The notes under the pieces were generated by a model, which was not told the origin of the DNA, made no database searches, and saw only the letters and a list, made by a program, of their open reading frames with translations. A program made the translations under genes and the position numbers. A stretch of DNA of 64,000 nucleotides from Flavobacteriaceae bacterium CG2_30_31_66 (lineage in GTDB: Bacteria > Bacteroidota > Bacteroidia > Flavobacteriales > Flavobacteriaceae). How positions within the stretch are numbered: position 1 is the stretch's first letter; every line of letters begins with the position of its first letter. The DNA lies in contig MNYM01000002.1 in NCBI GenBank assembly GCA_001873065.1, forward strand, positions 6,781-70,780. The letters run 5' to 3'. Positions 58,014 to 62,042 of the stretch are shown piece after piece.

Positions 58014-58046
58014 ATGACAATTCATCCTCAAAAAATGACAGTTCAG
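58014..58046 (+). promoter_or_regulatory. LytTR-type direct-repeat binding site
   Basis: ACAATTCAT (58017-58025) + 12 bp + ACAGTTCAG (58038-58046); both are preceded by ATG. Confidence 0.75.
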
Positions 58047-58118
58047 TAAGATTCAATTTATCTAACTGAAATCTTGTAGCATTTTTGTGGCATCATTAAT
58101 CTTAAAAACATAAAAATT

Positions 58119-58535
58119 ATGAAATTAGTAAAATCAATCGTAGTCATGGCAGTTTTATTCATCACGAATTCAGTAATTGCCCAAGAAAAAGCAACCCTCA
58201 CAGCAGAAGTTATCAATGTCACTTCCGATGCTGGAAAAGTAGGTTTTGCATTGTATGACAAAGCATCTTTTATGCTAAAACCAATTCAAGCAGCAAATGC
58301 AAAAATTGTAGAAGGGAAAAGTACTGTAACTTTTGAAAACGTTCCTTTTGGTGAATATGCCATTATTTGTTATCATGACAAAAATGATAATGACAAAATG
58401 GATTTTTCTGCCAACGGAATGCCTACTGAAGATTTTGGAGCATCCAATAATGTAATGACTTTTGGTCCTCCAACTTTTGATGGTGCAAAGTTTGCAGTTT
58501 CAGAGAAAAATGTATCTTTAAGGATTAAATTTTAA
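58119..58535 (+). CDS. DUF2141 domain exported protein
   Basis: Signal peptide; G.V..ALY, GEYAI..YHDKN.N.KMD, P.E.FG.SNN, GPP.F. Confidence 0.88.
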   Translation: MKLVKSIVVMAVLFITNSVIAQEKATLTAEVINVTSDAGKVGFALYDKASFMLKPIQAANAKIVEGKSTVTFENVPFGEYAIICYHDKNDNDKMDFSANGMPTEDFGASNNVMTFGPPTFDGAKFAVSEKNVSLRIKF

Positions 58536-58565
58536 TAGCCATTTTTAACACAAATTTCATTGATT

Positions 58566-59918
58566 ATGACTTCCAATATCTCGCTGAGAAATACCATTAA
58601 AGAAGGTTTCTTAACAAGTTTGAAAATAACTTTCATTTTTGCAGTCGTTTTCACGGTGCTTAATCAAGATTTTACTTTCAAAGGTGTTTTATATACCATT
58701 TTAATATCTGGAATGTATTCTTTTGGTTTGGGTTTTGGACAAGGCGTTATCAATGATACATTGAGTAAAAAATGGAGTTGGGTTGATGAGACCAATCAGC
58801 GAGTTTGGATAGGTATTATTGCTACAATTGGCTACACAATTCCTGTAGTTTTTTTGATAAATTACATCAATTTTATTGTCATCAATGGTAATAATCCAGC
58901 TAATTTTTTTAAGGGAAATACTGTTTGGGTTCACTTTTTTTACATCATTTTATCTTTCGGAATTTCAGCATTTTTGCATGCAAGAAGTTTTATGATTGAA
59001 TGGAAAAAATCGATAAAACAAGAAAGTACTCTACAAGAAATTGTTGCAAAAACTGAAACAGCCAAATTTGAATCTTTAAAAAATCAAATAGACCCACATT
59101 TTTTATTCAATAGTTTAAATGTATTGACCAGTTTAATCAATGAAAATCCTAGTCAGGCAGAGAAATTTACCACCAAATTGTCAAAAATTTACAGGTATGT
59201 TTTGGAACAAAGAAACAAAGATTTGATTCCATTGTCAGAAGAATTGCATTTTGCAAAAACCTATATGGAGCTTTTAGGAATGCGTTTTGAAGACGCTGTG
59301 AAGTTCAATATACCAGATAATGTAAGCAATAACGAGCTTAAAATTGTGCCACTTTCGCTACAATTATTATTAGAAAATGCGGTAAAACACAATGTAGTTT
59401 CTTCGTACAAACCTTTGACTATTAGTATTTATGAAGAAAATGATTATTTGGTTATACAAAATAATGTAAACTCTAAAGAGGCTGTTGGAAAAAGTACCAA
59501 AGTAGGATTGCAAAACATCGCTGACAGGTATGGATTGATTACTCAAAAAAGTGTGCAAATAGAAAATAATAACAAAACATTTACAGTGAGGATTCCCCTC
59601 TTATATAAAATAAACAATATCATGTATCCAAAAGATTTAGAAAATAGCAACTACGTAAAAGCCGTAGAAAAAGTAAAAAAATTAAAAGAATTTTATCAAA
59701 ATTTAGCCTCCTATTGCATCATAATTCCCTTATTAGTGGTGATTAATTTGCAATTCATGCCAAGATTTTATTGGTTTTGGTTTCCGATGTTTGGATGGGG
59801 AATTGGCTTGTTTTTTCATTTTTTAGAAGTTAATAATTATTCATTTTTTCTGGGAGATAACTGGGAAGAAAGAAAAATAAAAGAGTTAATGGAAAAAGAA
59901 CAACAAAACAAATTTTAA
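58566..59918 (+). CDS. LytS-like membrane histidine kinase with C-terminal 2TM domain
   Basis: Four N-terminal TMs; LKNQIDPHFLFNSLN H-box, LLENAVKHN N-box; C-terminal KVKKLKEFY..L...WFWFPMFGWGIGLFFH...WEERKIKELM. Confidence 0.9.
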   Translation: MTSNISLRNTIKEGFLTSLKITFIFAVVFTVLNQDFTFKGVLYTILISGMYSFGLGFGQGVINDTLSKKWSWVDETNQRVWIGIIATIGYTIPVVFLINYINFIVINGNNPANFFKGNTVWVHFFYIILSFGISAFLHARSFMIEWKKSIKQESTLQEIVAKTETAKFESLKNQIDPHFLFNSLNVLTSLINENPSQAEKFTTKLSKIYRYVLEQRNKDLIPLSEELHFAKTYMELLGMRFEDAVKFNIPDNVSNNELKIVPLSLQLLLENAVKHNVVSSYKPLTISIYEENDYLVIQNNVNSKEAVGKSTKVGLQNIADRYGLITQKSVQIENNNKTFTVRIPLLYKINNIMYPKDLENSNYVKAVEKVKKLKEFYQNLASYCIIIPLLVVINLQFMPRFYWFWFPMFGWGIGLFFHFLEVNNYSFFLGDNWEERKIKELMEKEQQNKF

Positions 59919-59920
59919 GT

Positions 59921-60211
59921 ATGGATCCACAATTTACAGATTCAGAAAGATATTTTAGAGCGGAAAAACGTGTAAAGGAAATCAAAGGTTTTTACATTCA
60001 TTTAATAGTGTATTGTTTAATAATTTCAGCAATCATTTTTATCAACTTACGATATACTCCTCAATTTCATTGGTTCTGGTTTTCAGCTTTGGGATGGGGA
60101 TTGGGCTTGTTTTTTCATTGGTTAGGAATTTTTGGATTTCAATTAATCGGTTTGGGAAAAGATTGGGAAGATCGAAAAATAAAAGAATTTATGAATAAAA
60201 ATAATCATTAA
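59921..60211 (+). CDS. 2TM domain protein
   Basis: RAEKRVKEIKGFYIHL...WGLGLFFH...WEDRKIKEFM. Confidence 0.88.
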   Translation: MDPQFTDSERYFRAEKRVKEIKGFYIHLIVYCLIISAIIFINLRYTPQFHWFWFSALGWGLGLFFHWLGIFGFQLIGLGKDWEDRKIKEFMNKNNH

Positions 60212-60212
60212 T

Positions 60213-60551
60213 ATGGAACAGAATTATAGTACAGAACAAAGTTATTTACGTGCTAAAAAACGCGTAAAAGAAATCAAAGGTTTTTATATTCATTTGGTAG
60301 TTTTTATCGTCATCAACCTTTTTATTAGCGGGACAGCTATTTATGGCAACTTAAAAAGTGGAGACAGTTTTGTGGAAGCAGTATCAGAATTTGGAGTTTA
60401 TTCCATAGCCATTTTTTGGGGAATTGGAATGTTTTTTCATTGGTTGAGTGTTTTTGGTTTTAAGTCTATAGGTTTTGGTAGAGATTGGGAAGAGCGAAAA
60501 ATCAAAGAATATTTAGAAAAAGAAAATAACCAACTTTCAAAAAGAGAATAA
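60213..60551 (+). CDS. 2TM domain protein
   Basis: RAKKRVKEIKGFYIHL...WGIGMFFH...WEERKIKEYL. Confidence 0.88.
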   Translation: MEQNYSTEQSYLRAKKRVKEIKGFYIHLVVFIVINLFISGTAIYGNLKSGDSFVEAVSEFGVYSIAIFWGIGMFFHWLSVFGFKSIGFGRDWEERKIKEYLEKENNQLSKRE

Positions 60552-60553
60552 GT

Positions 60554-61309
60554 ATGAAAGTGGTCATCATTGAGGACGAAAAACCAGCAGCAAGAAGGCT
60601 CAGCAGAATGTTGGTAGACTTGAATATTGAAGTGCAAGAAATGCTACACTCCGTTGAGGAATCCCTGAATTGGTTGCAAAACAACGAACATCCAGCTTTG
60701 ATATTTTTAGACATTCAATTGTCTGACGGATTGTCTTTCGAAATTTTTGAAGAAATTGAAGTAAAAAGTGCTATTATTTTTATAACGGCTTATGATGAAT
60801 ATGCGCTCAGAGCATTCAAACTAAATTCTATTGATTATTTATTGAAGCCAATTGATGAAGACGAATTGGCAAATGCAGTAAATCAATTCAAAAAAAATCA
60901 ACCACAAAAAACAGCTTTAATGGTGAATTTGGATGATATTAAAAATTTATTAATCAATCCTTTAGATCGTAAATTTAAAAGAAGATTGTCTATCAAAGTT
61001 GGTGCACATATCAAGATAATTACCACAGATGCCATTGAATGTTTTTACAGCGAAAACAAAGCGACTTACTGTTTTACCAATGAAAAAAGGAGTTTTTTGT
61101 TAGATAATTCACTTGAAATTTGGGACGATCAGTTGGATCCAGAGCAATTTTTCAGAGTCAACAGAACCTTTATTGTCAATATCAATGCTATTAAGGACAT
61201 CGTTTCTTACTCAAATTCGCGCTTAAAACTGATTTTAAATTCCTATTCAGAAACGGAAATTATTGTAAGCAGGGAAAAAGTGAAAGATTTTAAAAATTGG
61301 TTAGCTTAA
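60554..61309 (+). CDS. LytR/AlgR family response regulator
   Basis: IIEDE, FLDIQL (phospho-Asp), ITAY, YLLKP; LytTR FFRVNRTFIVN. Confidence 0.95.
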   Translation: MKVVIIEDEKPAARRLSRMLVDLNIEVQEMLHSVEESLNWLQNNEHPALIFLDIQLSDGLSFEIFEEIEVKSAIIFITAYDEYALRAFKLNSIDYLLKPIDEDELANAVNQFKKNQPQKTALMVNLDDIKNLLINPLDRKFKRRLSIKVGAHIKIITTDAIECFYSENKATYCFTNEKRSFLLDNSLEIWDDQLDPEQFFRVNRTFIVNINAIKDIVSYSNSRLKLILNSYSETEIIVSREKVKDFKNWLA

Positions 61310-61370
61310 AGTATATAAAGGTTTAAAAATTTATAAAGTTTAAAAGTTTGTAAAGTTTAAAAGATAAATT
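61307..61370 (+). repeat. AAAGTTT-periodic tract with a 13-bp direct repeat at 17-bp period
   Basis: TAAAGTTTAAAAG at 61334-61346 and 61351-61363, within alternating 8/9-nt units. Confidence 0.55.
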
Positions 61371-61447
61371 GTTTATCGATTTACAATTTATAGTTATTTT
61401 TACGGCGAATAGTTTAAAATTAAAAGCAAGTAGCCAAAAGCTTTTTT

Positions 61448-61521
61448 GGGGAATTAGCTCAGTTGGCTAGAGCGCTACGCTGGCAGCGTAGAGGTCGTCG
61501 GTTCGAGCCCGATATTCTCCA
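61448..61521 (+). tRNA. tRNA-Ala (anticodon GGC); CCA not encoded
   Basis: Acceptor GGGGAAT/ATTCTCC with G3:U70 Ala determinant; anticodon arm CTACG-CTGGCAG-CGTAG; T-loop TTCGAGC. Confidence 0.97.
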
Positions 61522-61522
61522 C

Positions 61523-61560
61523 AAACCATTGATAATCTATCGATTGTTGATGGTTTTTTT
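61523..61560 (+). terminator. Intrinsic terminator after tRNA-Ala
   Basis: 15-bp stem (three G:U pairs) AAACCATTGATAATC/GATTGTTGATGGTTT plus T run. Confidence 0.8.
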
Positions 61561-61960
61561 ATAAACTTTTTTTATTTTTTCGTCTCAACATCCTTTTCTA
61601 TTTTTCCAAAATTGAGATATGTAAAGCTATTAGTTTGTTATCGTTCATAGGTATTTTAAAATTATTTTGTTTGATTCTGAATTTTATCTGCAAATTTGTG
61701 AGTCTTTTCTTTTAAACTAATTTTGAATTATTTTTATAAATAAGAAGATTTAACAATGATTTTTTTAGTCGAAGGTTTATTTTTTGAATCAATAGAAAAA
61801 TTATTTTTATTTTAAATAATGCCATAAAATAGTTCTTTATGTTCTGAAACCTACTAAAAAAACACACTTTTATTATCAAACTTTAATTTTTTATTTTTGT
61901 GGTTTTTTTAATCAGTTGTTTTTGTTTAAATATTTGTCAGCAATAATAAAAAATAGTATT

Positions 61961-61986
61961 TGTAACAAAACAAATACCATATCGTC
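61961..61986 (+). promoter_or_regulatory. ECF sigma-type promoter (-35 TGTAAC, 16-bp spacer, -10 CGTC)
   Basis: TGTAAC-aaaacaaataccatat-CGTC, 56 nt upstream of the sigma gene; fits the general ECF AAC/CGT pattern. Confidence 0.7.
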
Positions 61987-62042
61987 ATAAGCATGTAAAC
62001 CTGATATGAGAGATGAAAAAATATCAGTAATATTAAAACACA

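What the first reader, a model, noticed from the sequence alone, without database searches (positions are those of the whole stretch)
58014..58070. Textbook LytTR 9-12-9 direct repeat in front of the DUF2141 operon
Seen: ATGACAATTCAT and ATGACAGTTCAG recur at an exact 21-bp period, about 70 bp upstream of DUF2141. An inverted partial copy (ACTGAA, 58065-58070) follows. Known: LytTR regulators (AgrA, BlpR, PlnC/D, AlgR) bind 9-bp repeats of consensus [TA][AC][CA]GTTN[AG][TG] separated by 12 bp; ACAGTTCAG matches fully and ACAATTCAT has one mismatch. Inference: the operon's own LytTR regulator autoactivates it, and the motif can be used to predict the regulon of an uncharacterised Bacteroidota system.
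Basis: partly seen in the sequence, partly recalled or inferred. Interest (0 to 1): 0.62.

Follow-up and report, generated by a model that had tools for sequence, protein, structure and literature searches.

The report
Conserved LytTR operator, flavobacterial envelope regulon
The repeated 9-letter motif is a real, deeply conserved docking site that most likely lets a Polaribacter two-component regulator switch on its own operon and three other cell-envelope promoters; the mechanism is ordinary, but this signalling system had no known DNA target.

Summary
Observation confirmed. ACAATTCAT (58017-25) and ACAGTTCAG (58038-46) are a 9-12-9 direct repeat with a 21-bp period, 72 bp before the DUF2141 start codon. 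Alone in one window this is not statistically remarkable. The support is comparative. All 25 distinct Polaribacter orthologous loci keep it without gaps, with conservation starting abruptly at 58016. 68 of 70 loci across about 12 Flavobacteriaceae genera have one same-strand site upstream of the orthologous kinase/regulator genes, and none on the opposite strand in 937 kb. A weight matrix trained without this genome finds exactly four sites in its 3 Mb, against none for shuffled matrices. Each site lies exactly 36 nt from a TTTG -7 box. They precede the DUF2141/kinase/2TM/2TM/LytTR operon, a TonB-receptor-like gene, a DUF2141 paralogue followed by a 207-aa TPR-like gene, and a DUF2807 (Toastrack) gene next to PspC. 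Six paralogous regulator operons carry the same architecture with a different half-site extension. Best reading (about 0.8): the operon's own REC-LytTR regulator binds as a tandem dimer at about -76 to -45 and activates a weak sigma-A promoter. Binding, the transcription start and the direction of regulation are untested. The DUF2807 site persists in genomes lacking the regulator. The ACTGAA "inverted copy" is not conserved. This is a new member of a known kind.

The parts
58016..58028 (+). Distal half-site, T-ACAATTCAT-CCT (genus consensus T-ACA-a-T-T-C-A-T-C-c-T)
   Evidence: ACA 58017-19 and T58022 are invariant and C58023 is present in 24 of 25 distinct orthologous loci. Conservation begins abruptly at 58016.
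58029..58036 (+). A-rich spacer with a conserved A-tract (58030-58035)
   Evidence: 58031-32 are A in 25/25 loci and 58033-35 in 22-24/25. A role in DNA bending or spacing is inferred only.
58037..58048 (+). Proximal half-site, G-ACAGTTCAG-TA (genus consensus T-ACA-R-Y-T-S-R-G-T-a)
   Evidence: ACA 58038-40, T58043 and GT 58046-47 are invariant in 25/25 loci.
58057..58060 (+). -33-like element TTTA (weak version of TTTG), predicted -35 to -32
   Evidence: TTT 58057-59 is invariant. The position is inferred from the -7 box. The -33 consensus itself is recalled from memory, not checked here.
58080..58087 (+). Sigma-A -7 box CATTTTTG (7 of 8 matches to TAnnTTTG)
   Evidence: A58081 and TTTG 58084-87 are invariant. 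TTTG lies exactly 36 nt after the proximal half-site at all four genomic sites. The consensus and its -12 to -5 position are from PMC9723704.
58092..58092 (+). Predicted transcription start (about +1), giving a 5' UTR of about 27 nt
   Evidence: Inferred from the -7 box position.
58119..58535 (+). DUF2141 protein, first gene of the operon
   Evidence: PF09912, E = 6e-29.
58560..59918 (+). Histidine kinase (PF06580 His_kinase) fused to a C-terminal 2TM domain
   Evidence: It follows DUF2141 in all 25 orthologous loci.
59921..60211 (+). Stand-alone 2TM protein
   Evidence: PF13239, E = 1e-26.
60213..60551 (+). Stand-alone 2TM protein
   Evidence: PF13239, E = 1e-22.
60554..61309 (+). REC-LytTR response regulator, the proposed binder of the repeat
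   Evidence: REC plus LytTR domains, with E7/D8, D53 and K98 present. It falls below the cut-offs for the LytR and BtsR equivalog models.
61523..61556 (+). Terminator-like hairpin after the operon
   Evidence: there is no + strand terminator between 58119 and 61309.

Best explanation
The direct repeat at 58016-58048 is the operator of the operon's own REC-LytTR response regulator (60554-61309). When the 2TM-fused PF06580 kinase phosphorylates D53, two LytTR domains are proposed to bind in tandem to the two half-sites. The half-sites are 21 bp (two helical turns) apart and centred at about -71 and -50. The bound regulator would recruit or stabilise RNA polymerase at a sigma-A promoter with a good -7 box (CATTTTTG, 58080-87) and a weak -33 (TTTA). 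This would give positive autoregulation of the five-gene operon. In this genome the same operator-promoter cassette (two half-sites, 36 nt, then TTTG) also drives a CarboxypepD_reg/Plug TonB-receptor-like gene and a DUF2141 paralogue followed by a 207-aa secreted TPR-like gene. It probably also drives the DUF2807 (Toastrack) gene next to PspC. The regulon therefore points to the cell envelope. What is shown: the sequence, its conservation, its fixed geometry, its co-localisation with the regulator gene, and its uniqueness in the genome. What is inferred: binding by this regulator, the transcription start, activation rather than repression, and the physiological signal.
For: The repeat and gene order are confirmed. 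In 25 of 25 distinct Polaribacter loci the site is kept without gaps about 100 bp before the ATG, while the upstream flank carries about 0 bits. The kinase follows DUF2141 in all of these loci. A matrix trained without this genome's own site gives 5 hits of at least 12 bits in 3 Mb, against 0 for the reversed matrix and five column-shuffled matrices. When TTTG at +36 is also required, exactly 4 sites remain (39.3, 29.4, 21.8 and 20.6 bits), with nothing else above 0 bits and none for shuffled matrices. The composite pattern is found in 35 of 36 genus genomes, with 3 control matches across all 61 genomes searched. Across about 12 genera (regulator 64-90% identical), 68 of 70 loci have a same-strand site upstream of the kinase/regulator genes and no opposite-strand hit in 937 kb. 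Where DUF2141 is not the first gene, the site stays with the two-component operon. In another family (G040, regulator 48% identical) the arrangement is the same. Six of six paralogous operons (regulators 44-50% identical) carry the same architecture with a different half-site extension, ACTAC/ATTAC. In this genome the other five LytTR proteins are at most 30% identical to the regulator, and no other site scored at least 12 bits anywhere in the genome. The geometry matches published LytTR sites (PMC4847170; PMC4227749). The exceptions fit the model: P. irgensii has a decayed site next to a diverged DUF2141, and G036 has a relic promoter in front of a deleted operon.
Against: Six Polaribacter genomes without a regulator orthologue still have one composite-pattern hit each. 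Three were examined: G012's precedes the DUF2807 orthologue, G010's precedes a probably transferred membrane-protein gene, and G036's is a relic promoter. So another factor may read at least the DUF2807-type sites, or those sites are relics. The shared ACARYTS core among paralogous systems leaves room for cross-talk. The sign of regulation is inferred from position only. The -33 assignment rests on a consensus recalled from memory.
Confidence: 0.8

Rival explanations
1. The repeat is a genuine operator, but it is read by a different protein: another LytTR paralogue or an unrelated factor. Its position in front of the regulator's operon would then reflect co-regulation, not autoregulation.
For: The genome has six LytTR proteins. 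Genus genomes without the regulator orthologue keep a site before DUF2807 (G012/G018) or before another gene (G010). Paralogous systems share the ACARYTS core.
Against: The other five LytTR proteins in this genome are at most 30% identical to the regulator. The site stays with the regulator/kinase operon across about 12 genera, even where the first gene changes. Paralogous regulators each have their own variant site at the head of their own operon. Genomes without the regulator have 1 site each, against an average of about 3.5 in genomes with it.
Confidence: 0.1
2. The operon's regulator does bind the site, but as a repressor or as a factor independent of phosphorylation (negative autoregulation).
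For: Nothing here tests the sign of regulation. Some LytTR proteins repress: AgrA bound downstream of the bsaA promoter is one example (PMC4227749).
Against: The site lies at about -76 to -45, entirely upstream of the -33 region. Its orientation and its 36-nt register to the -7 box are fixed at every promoter. The -33 element is weak (TTTA). This is the layout of activator-dependent LytTR promoters such as agr P2/P3.
Confidence: 0.07
3. The repeat is a chance repeat in AT-rich intergenic DNA, or part of an RNA element or hairpin formed with the ACTGAA copy.
For: In this genome the region folds slightly better than shuffles (z = -1.97).
Against: Conservation across genera with sharp boundaries. 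Controls gave no hits. The hairpin partners are not conserved, with 3-10 of 14 pairs kept in most orthologues. There is no Rfam match. The repeats lie upstream of the conserved -7 box.
Confidence: 0.01

Closest known systems
AgrA operators at the agr P2/P3 promoters of Staphylococcus aureus
   Same: Two direct repeats bound by a dimer of a REC-LytTR regulator. They lie immediately upstream of a suboptimal promoter and drive the operon that encodes the regulator and its kinase, giving positive autoregulation plus a small regulon (PMC4227749).
   Different: The promoter here is the Bacteroidota sigma-A type (-33/-7). The kinase is the PF06580 type with a 2TM tail, not AgrC. There are no peptide-pheromone genes. 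The proximal repeat is centred at about -50 rather than about -60. The spacer carries a conserved A-tract. The regulon consists of envelope proteins.
YpdB/BtsR (E. coli LytS/LytTR-type systems) at the yhjX and btsT promoters
   Same: A PF06580 kinase paired with a LytTR regulator, and a direct repeat of a roughly 10-nt motif (GGCATTTCAT) with sequential, cooperative occupation of the two sites (PMC4847170). The TTCAT core even resembles the distal half-site here.
   Different: The regulator scores far below the BtsR and LytR equivalog cut-offs (102 bits against 246, and 108 against 375). Pfam detected no 5TMR-LYT sensor domain in the kinase. From memory, the E. coli systems activate a transporter gene rather than their own operon.
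ComE, PlnC/D and BlpR boxes of Gram-positive peptide quorum sensing
   Same: A 9-12-9 direct-repeat layout in front of autoregulated operons. From memory, the ComE box reads roughly aCAnTTcaG, which is close to ACAGTTCAG.
   Different: This resemblance is recalled from memory and was not tested here. The phylum is different, there are no pheromone or bacteriocin genes, and the promoter type differs.
LiaFSR / PSP-type envelope stress modules (Toastrack, PspC)
   Same: One predicted target is a DUF2807 (Toastrack) gene directly downstream of a PspC/LiaF-TM/Toastrack protein. Toastrack is reported to associate with two-component systems and LytTR domains (PMC11237479).
   Different: LiaR is a non-LytTR (REC-wHTH) regulator (PMC11237479). 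No PspA or LiaH gene was seen in the stretches examined. Only the content of the regulon is similar, not the mechanism.

Membership tests
LytTR-regulator operator (AgrA/ComE/PlnC/YpdB type) | Two repeats of 9-11 nt separated by 11-13 nt (PMC4847170) | tested here: met
   9-bp cores at 58017-25 and 58038-46 with a 12-bp spacer and a 21-bp period. The spacing is invariant in 25 of 25 genus loci and in the hits across the family.
LytTR-regulator operator (AgrA/ComE/PlnC/YpdB type) | Located just upstream of the regulated promoter, in a fixed orientation | tested here: met
   All sites are on the strand of the downstream gene, with no opposite-strand hit in 937 kb. There are exactly 36 nt to the TTTG of the -7 box at all four sites in this genome. 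The transcription start is predicted, not mapped.
LytTR-regulator operator (AgrA/ComE/PlnC/YpdB type) | A LytTR-domain regulator co-occurs with the site, typically in the regulated operon | tested here: met
   The REC-LytTR gene is the last gene of the operon. The site and the regulator co-localise in 68 of 70 loci and in 6 of 6 paralogous operons.
LytTR-regulator operator (AgrA/ComE/PlnC/YpdB type) | Sequence-specific binding by the LytTR domain | not testable with these tools
   This needs EMSA, footprinting or DAP-seq.
   ACAGTTCAG matches 9 of 9 positions and ACAATTCAT 8 of 9. However, the G at position 4 is not conserved in orthologues: the proximal site reads 13 G, 11 A and 1 T, and the distal site 19 A. 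PMC4847170 states that LytTR sites share no common consensus. I did not verify the quoted consensus in a paper.
Bacteroidota sigma-A promoter | -7 box TAnnTTTG at -12 to -5 (PMC9723704) | tested here: met
   CATTTTTG at 58080-87 matches 7 of 8 positions. The A and the TTTG are invariant in 25 of 25 loci, and the box is present at all four sites.
Bacteroidota sigma-A promoter | -33 element (TTTG, recalled from memory) and a mapped transcription start | tested here: inconclusive
   The -33 part was examined: only TTT(A) at 58057-60 is present, with TTT invariant.
LytS/LytR or BtsS/BtsR-type two-component system | PF06580 His_kinase domain in the kinase and REC + LytTR in the regulator, with a phospho-acceptor Asp | tested here: met
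   D53 aligns with the acceptor Asp of solved receiver domains.
LytS/LytR or BtsS/BtsR-type two-component system | Equivalog-level similarity to LytR or BtsR, and a 5TMR-LYT sensor domain in the kinase | tested here: not met
   The regulator scores 108 bits against a LytR cut-off of 375, and 102 bits against a BtsR cut-off of 246. Pfam reports only His_kinase and 2TM for the kinase at E <= 0.01. It is a member of the broad LytTR two-component class, not of these named systems.

The most novel reading that the evidence does not exclude
The kinase-2TM / 2TM / 2TM / LytTR system is the master switch of a previously undescribed envelope module found across the Flavobacteriaceae. The module comprises a TonB-receptor-like outer-membrane protein, DUF2141, a secreted 207-aa TPR-like protein and possibly the PspC-linked Toastrack protein. 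All are wired through one operator-promoter cassette with a rigid 36-nt register. Paralogous systems would be kept separate by the 3' extension of the half-site (ATCC/GGTA versus ACTAC), making this a natural set of orthogonal LytTR operators in Bacteroidota.
Probability: 0.45. Interest if true: 0.62.

Novelty: new member of a known kind. Interest (0 to 1): 0.5.

Why it matters
The searched library holds no paper that mentions both DUF2141 and LytTR. Papers combining LytTR with Flavobacterium or Bacteroidetes were genome or domain surveys that describe no operator. This site gives a precise, testable DNA target and a four-promoter regulon for a two-component system conserved across marine Flavobacteriaceae, including Polaribacter, Tenacibaculum, Winogradskyella, Kordia, Aquimarina and Lutibacter. 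It links several domains of unknown function (DUF2141, 2TM, a 207-aa TPR-like family, DUF2807/Toastrack) into one envelope-related unit. It also offers a compact inducible promoter cassette for organisms that have few genetic tools. The mechanism itself is the expected one for LytTR regulators.

Tried and rejected
not significant. In the whole genome at up to 1 mismatch it gave 6 hits against 1 control, and only three of the six are real sites.
- **Fifth matrix hit (C49, 12.5 bits):** rejected. It has the wrong TTTG offset and looks like coding sequence.
- **ACTGAA inverted copy and hairpin:** present and foldable here (z = -1.97) but not conserved.
- **Known RNA families:** no credible Rfam match.
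- **E. coli-type sigma-70 promoter scan:** no enrichment, which is uninformative for Bacteroidota.
- **Solved structures for DUF2141:** none.
- **NCBIfam:** no names for DUF2141, the kinase, the 2TM proteins or DUF2807.
- **One script timed out** and was rewritten.
- **Strict co-absence of motif and regulator:** this did not hold. Genomes without the regulator keep one site each. Three of the six were examined and partly explained (relic promoter, DUF2807 site, transferred gene).

Full report
**1. What is in the sequence**

One search shows ATGACAATTCAT at 58014-58025 and ATGACAGTTCAG at 58035-58046. These are two 9-bp cores, ACAATTCAT (58017-25) and ACAGTTCAG (58038-46), separated by 12 bp, so the period is 21 bp. 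The second core ends 72 bp before the ATG at 58119. ACTGAA is at 58065-70.

Pfam confirms the tightly packed + strand gene row:
- DUF2141 (58119-58535)
- a PF06580 histidine kinase with a C-terminal 2TM domain (58560-59918)
- two stand-alone 2TM proteins (59921-60211 and 60213-60551)
- a REC-LytTR response regulator (60554-61309)

There is no + strand terminator inside this row, and a terminator-like hairpin follows at 61523-61556. The upstream neighbour is a divergent GNAT/argG unit. The window is contig C45:6781-70780 of a 2.99-Mb genome with 31% G+C. Record titles of the closest loci place it in Polaribacter, family Flavobacteriaceae.

**2. Is it more than chance?**

Not within the window alone. 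The evidence is comparative.

I took the 25 distinct orthologous loci in the genus, where DUF2141 is 50-84% identical and is always followed by the kinase. The repeat aligns without a single gap about 100 bp before the start codon. Per-column information is about 0 bits upstream of 58015, then rises abruptly. These positions are invariant or nearly so:
- ACA at 58017-19 and T58022 are invariant; C58023 is kept in 24 of 25 loci
- the A-tract at 58031-35
- ACA at 58038-40, T58043 and GT at 58046-47
- TTT at 58057-59
- A58081 and TTTG at 58084-87

The genus consensus is T-ACA-a-TTC-ATCcT-aAAAAAAa-T-ACA-R-Y-T-S-R-GT.

Columns 58065-70 (ACTGAA) are not conserved. The hairpin that ACTGAA can form with the proximal repeat in this genome (z = -1.97) keeps only 3-10 of its 14 pairs in most orthologues. 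No Rfam family matches the region.

**3. The promoter**

In Flavobacterium the sigma-A -7 box TAnnTTTG occupies -12 to -5 (PMC9723704). CATTTTTG at 58080-87 fits 7 of 8 positions, and its A and TTTG are invariant. This predicts a transcription start near 58092. The half-site centres then fall at about -71 and -50, and the invariant TTT falls at -35 to -33. That would be a weak version of the -33 element, whose consensus I recall from memory. The operator therefore abuts the promoter from upstream, as at agr P2/P3 (PMC4227749).

**4. Genome-wide scan**

I built a 32-bp weight matrix from the 24 orthologous sites, leaving out this genome's own site. It gives five hits of at least 12 bits in the whole genome. 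The reversed matrix and five column-shuffled matrices give none.

Four of the five hits have TTTG exactly 36 nt after the proximal half-site and lie about 60-70 bp before a start codon. The fifth (12.5 bits) has a different offset and looks like coding sequence, so I reject it. When TTTG at +36 is required, there are exactly four sites, with nothing between 20.6 and 0 bits. Other offsets and shuffled matrices give essentially none.

| Site (genome coordinates) | Score | Gene downstream |
|---|---|---|
| C45:64796-64827 (= window 58016-58047) | 39.3 bits | DUF2141 and the two-component operon |
| C38:93064-93095 (-) | 29.4 bits | DUF2141 paralogue, followed by a 207-aa secreted TPR-like gene |
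| C38:95320-95351 (-) | 20.6 bits | 719-aa CarboxypepD_reg/Plug TonB-receptor-like gene |
| C16:6676-6707 (-) | 21.8 bits | DUF2807 gene, in the short gap after a PspC/LiaF-TM/Toastrack gene |

**5. Does the site go with the regulator?**

- *Within the genus.* The composite pattern (both half-sites, N36, TTTG, up to 1 mismatch) occurs in 35 of 36 genomes, usually 3-6 times. Only 3 control matches appear across all 61 genomes searched. The paired sites at the TonB-receptor-like gene and the DUF2141 paralogue recur in at least 20 genomes (coordinates). The PspC-[site]-DUF2807 arrangement holds in 8 of 8 genomes examined.
- *Across the family.* I examined 80 named loci with regulators 64-90% identical, from Polaribacter, Tenacibaculum, Winogradskyella, Kordia, Aquimarina, Lutibacter, Maribacter, Aureitalea, Pontimicrobium, Neptunitalea, Aureibaculum and Urechidicola. 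Of the 70 loci with enough upstream sequence, 68 have a site on the regulator's strand upstream of the kinase. There is no hit on the opposite strand in 937 kb.
- *When the first gene changes.* Where DUF2141 is not the first gene, the site precedes a 206-211-aa protein that is 45-53% identical to the 207-aa gene on C38 in this genome. In Aureibaculum that family is fused to DUF2141. So in other genera the TonB-receptor-like gene, DUF2141, the 207-aa gene, the kinase, the 2TM genes and the regulator lie together as one cluster, whereas Polaribacter carries them at two loci that both keep their sites. I read the single cluster as the ancestral arrangement.
- *More distant homologues.* A genome of another family (G040, regulator 48% identical) has the same layout. 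Six of six paralogous operons (regulators 44-50% identical; an unknown protein, kinase gene(s) and the regulator) begin with the same cassette, but their half-sites are extended ACTAC/ATTAC instead of ATCC/GGTA.
- *Competitors in this genome.* The other five LytTR proteins are at most 30% identical to the regulator.
- *The two family-wide exceptions fit the model.* P. irgensii has a decayed site (2.8 bits) before a strongly diverged DUF2141. One regulator sits in a different context without a kinase and has no site.

**6. What does not fit cleanly**

Six genus genomes lack a regulator orthologue yet have one site each. I examined three of them:
- In G036 the site is the orthologous promoter in front of a deleted operon.
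- In G012 it precedes the DUF2807 orthologue.
- In G010 it precedes a membrane-protein gene that is 99.5% identical in G024, which suggests recent transfer.

The DUF2807 promoter can therefore persist without this regulator. Either another factor reads it or it is a relic, so its place in the regulon is less certain.

**7. Mechanism**

The regulator has an intact receiver, with E7/D8, D53 and K98 aligned to solved receiver domains, and a LytTR domain. It scores far below the LytR and BtsR equivalog cut-offs.

The most likely mechanism is as follows. The phosphorylated regulator binds as a tandem dimer to the two half-sites on the same face of the helix. From about -76 to -45 it activates a sigma-A promoter whose -33 element is weak. 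This gives positive autoregulation and co-induction of the envelope genes.

The targets point to an envelope function. DUF2807 is a Toastrack domain of PSP/Lia-type envelope systems (PMC11237479). A DUF2141-like domain is the C-terminal domain of LptZ, a Bacteroides inner-membrane protein that associates with the Lpt machinery (bioRxiv 10.64898/2026.10.02.756314).

Binding, the transcription start, the direction of regulation and the signal are all inferred.

**8. Comparison with known systems and novelty**

The layout meets the published structural definition of LytTR operators, which is 9-11-nt repeats separated by 11-13 nt with no shared consensus (PMC4847170). It works like agr P2/P3 or the YpdB site.

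It differs in several ways:
- the Bacteroidota promoter type
- the rigid 36-nt register to the -7 box
- the conserved A-tract in the spacer
- the 2TM-fused kinase with two free 2TM proteins
- the content of the regulon

The library searches turned up no description of this system or of any LytTR operator in Bacteroidota. I class it as a new member of a known kind. It is well supported computationally, moderately interesting, and directly testable.

Noticed in passing
L122 2162-2679 (G036:C1, about 1585660-1586180): In one Polaribacter genome the orthologous promoter with its repeat is still present, but the operon behind it is reduced. A DUF2141 N-terminal fragment (residues 6-56) abuts a C-terminal LytTR fragment of the regulator (residues 163-250, 76% identical) in another frame. 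This looks like a large internal deletion.
   Followed up: partly
L098 395-1393 (Aureibaculum marinum NZ_RPFJ01000040.1): A 332-aa protein fuses the 207-aa TPR-like family to a DUF2141 domain, directly behind a 38-bit site. This Rosetta-stone fusion links the two uncharacterised families.
   Followed up: partly
L133-L138 (G022, G006, G013, G007, G019): Paralogous LytTR operons (an unknown protein of about 450 aa in most of them, then PF06580 kinase gene(s) and a regulator 44-50% identical) each start with the same repeat/36-nt/TTTG cassette. Their half-sites are extended ACTAC/ATTAC, which may be the specificity determinant. This genome has no such paralogue.
   Followed up: partly
L120 6050-6806 (-) and L132 1958-2711 (+): A 219-aa membrane protein gene with an identical upstream repeat is 99.5% identical between two Polaribacter species (G010 and G024) and is absent from this genome. 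This suggests recent horizontal transfer of a gene together with its operator.
   Followed up: partly
L075 2524-3037 (Polaribacter irgensii 23-P): At the homologous position the operator has decayed (AACGATTCAT...CCAGTCCAGT, 2.8 bits; TTTA instead of TTTG), and the DUF2141 behind it is only 27% identical. The kinase and regulator remain 73-74% identical.
   Followed up: partly
L037 9417-9981 (-) (G000:C38, about 95416-95980): A ParE-toxin-like ORF (97 aa), with a 93-aa ORF overlapping it by 11 bp just upstream, lies directly upstream of the operator of the TonB-receptor-like gene. It may be a toxin-antitoxin pair.
   Followed up: no
window 61310-62042: A stretch of about 730 bp after the regulator gene has no + strand ORF of 50 aa or more, and a long AT-rich terminator-like hairpin at 61523-61556. 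In some other Polaribacter species a second, paralogous LytTR operon or an extra site lies directly downstream of the regulator (L070 6846, L073 9122, G006, G035).
   Followed up: no
window 58093-58107: A conserved TaAtTAA...AAA block lies in the predicted 5' UTR, between the -7 box and the start codon. It may relate to Shine-Dalgarno-independent translation initiation in Bacteroidota, or to the region around the transcription start.
   Followed up: no
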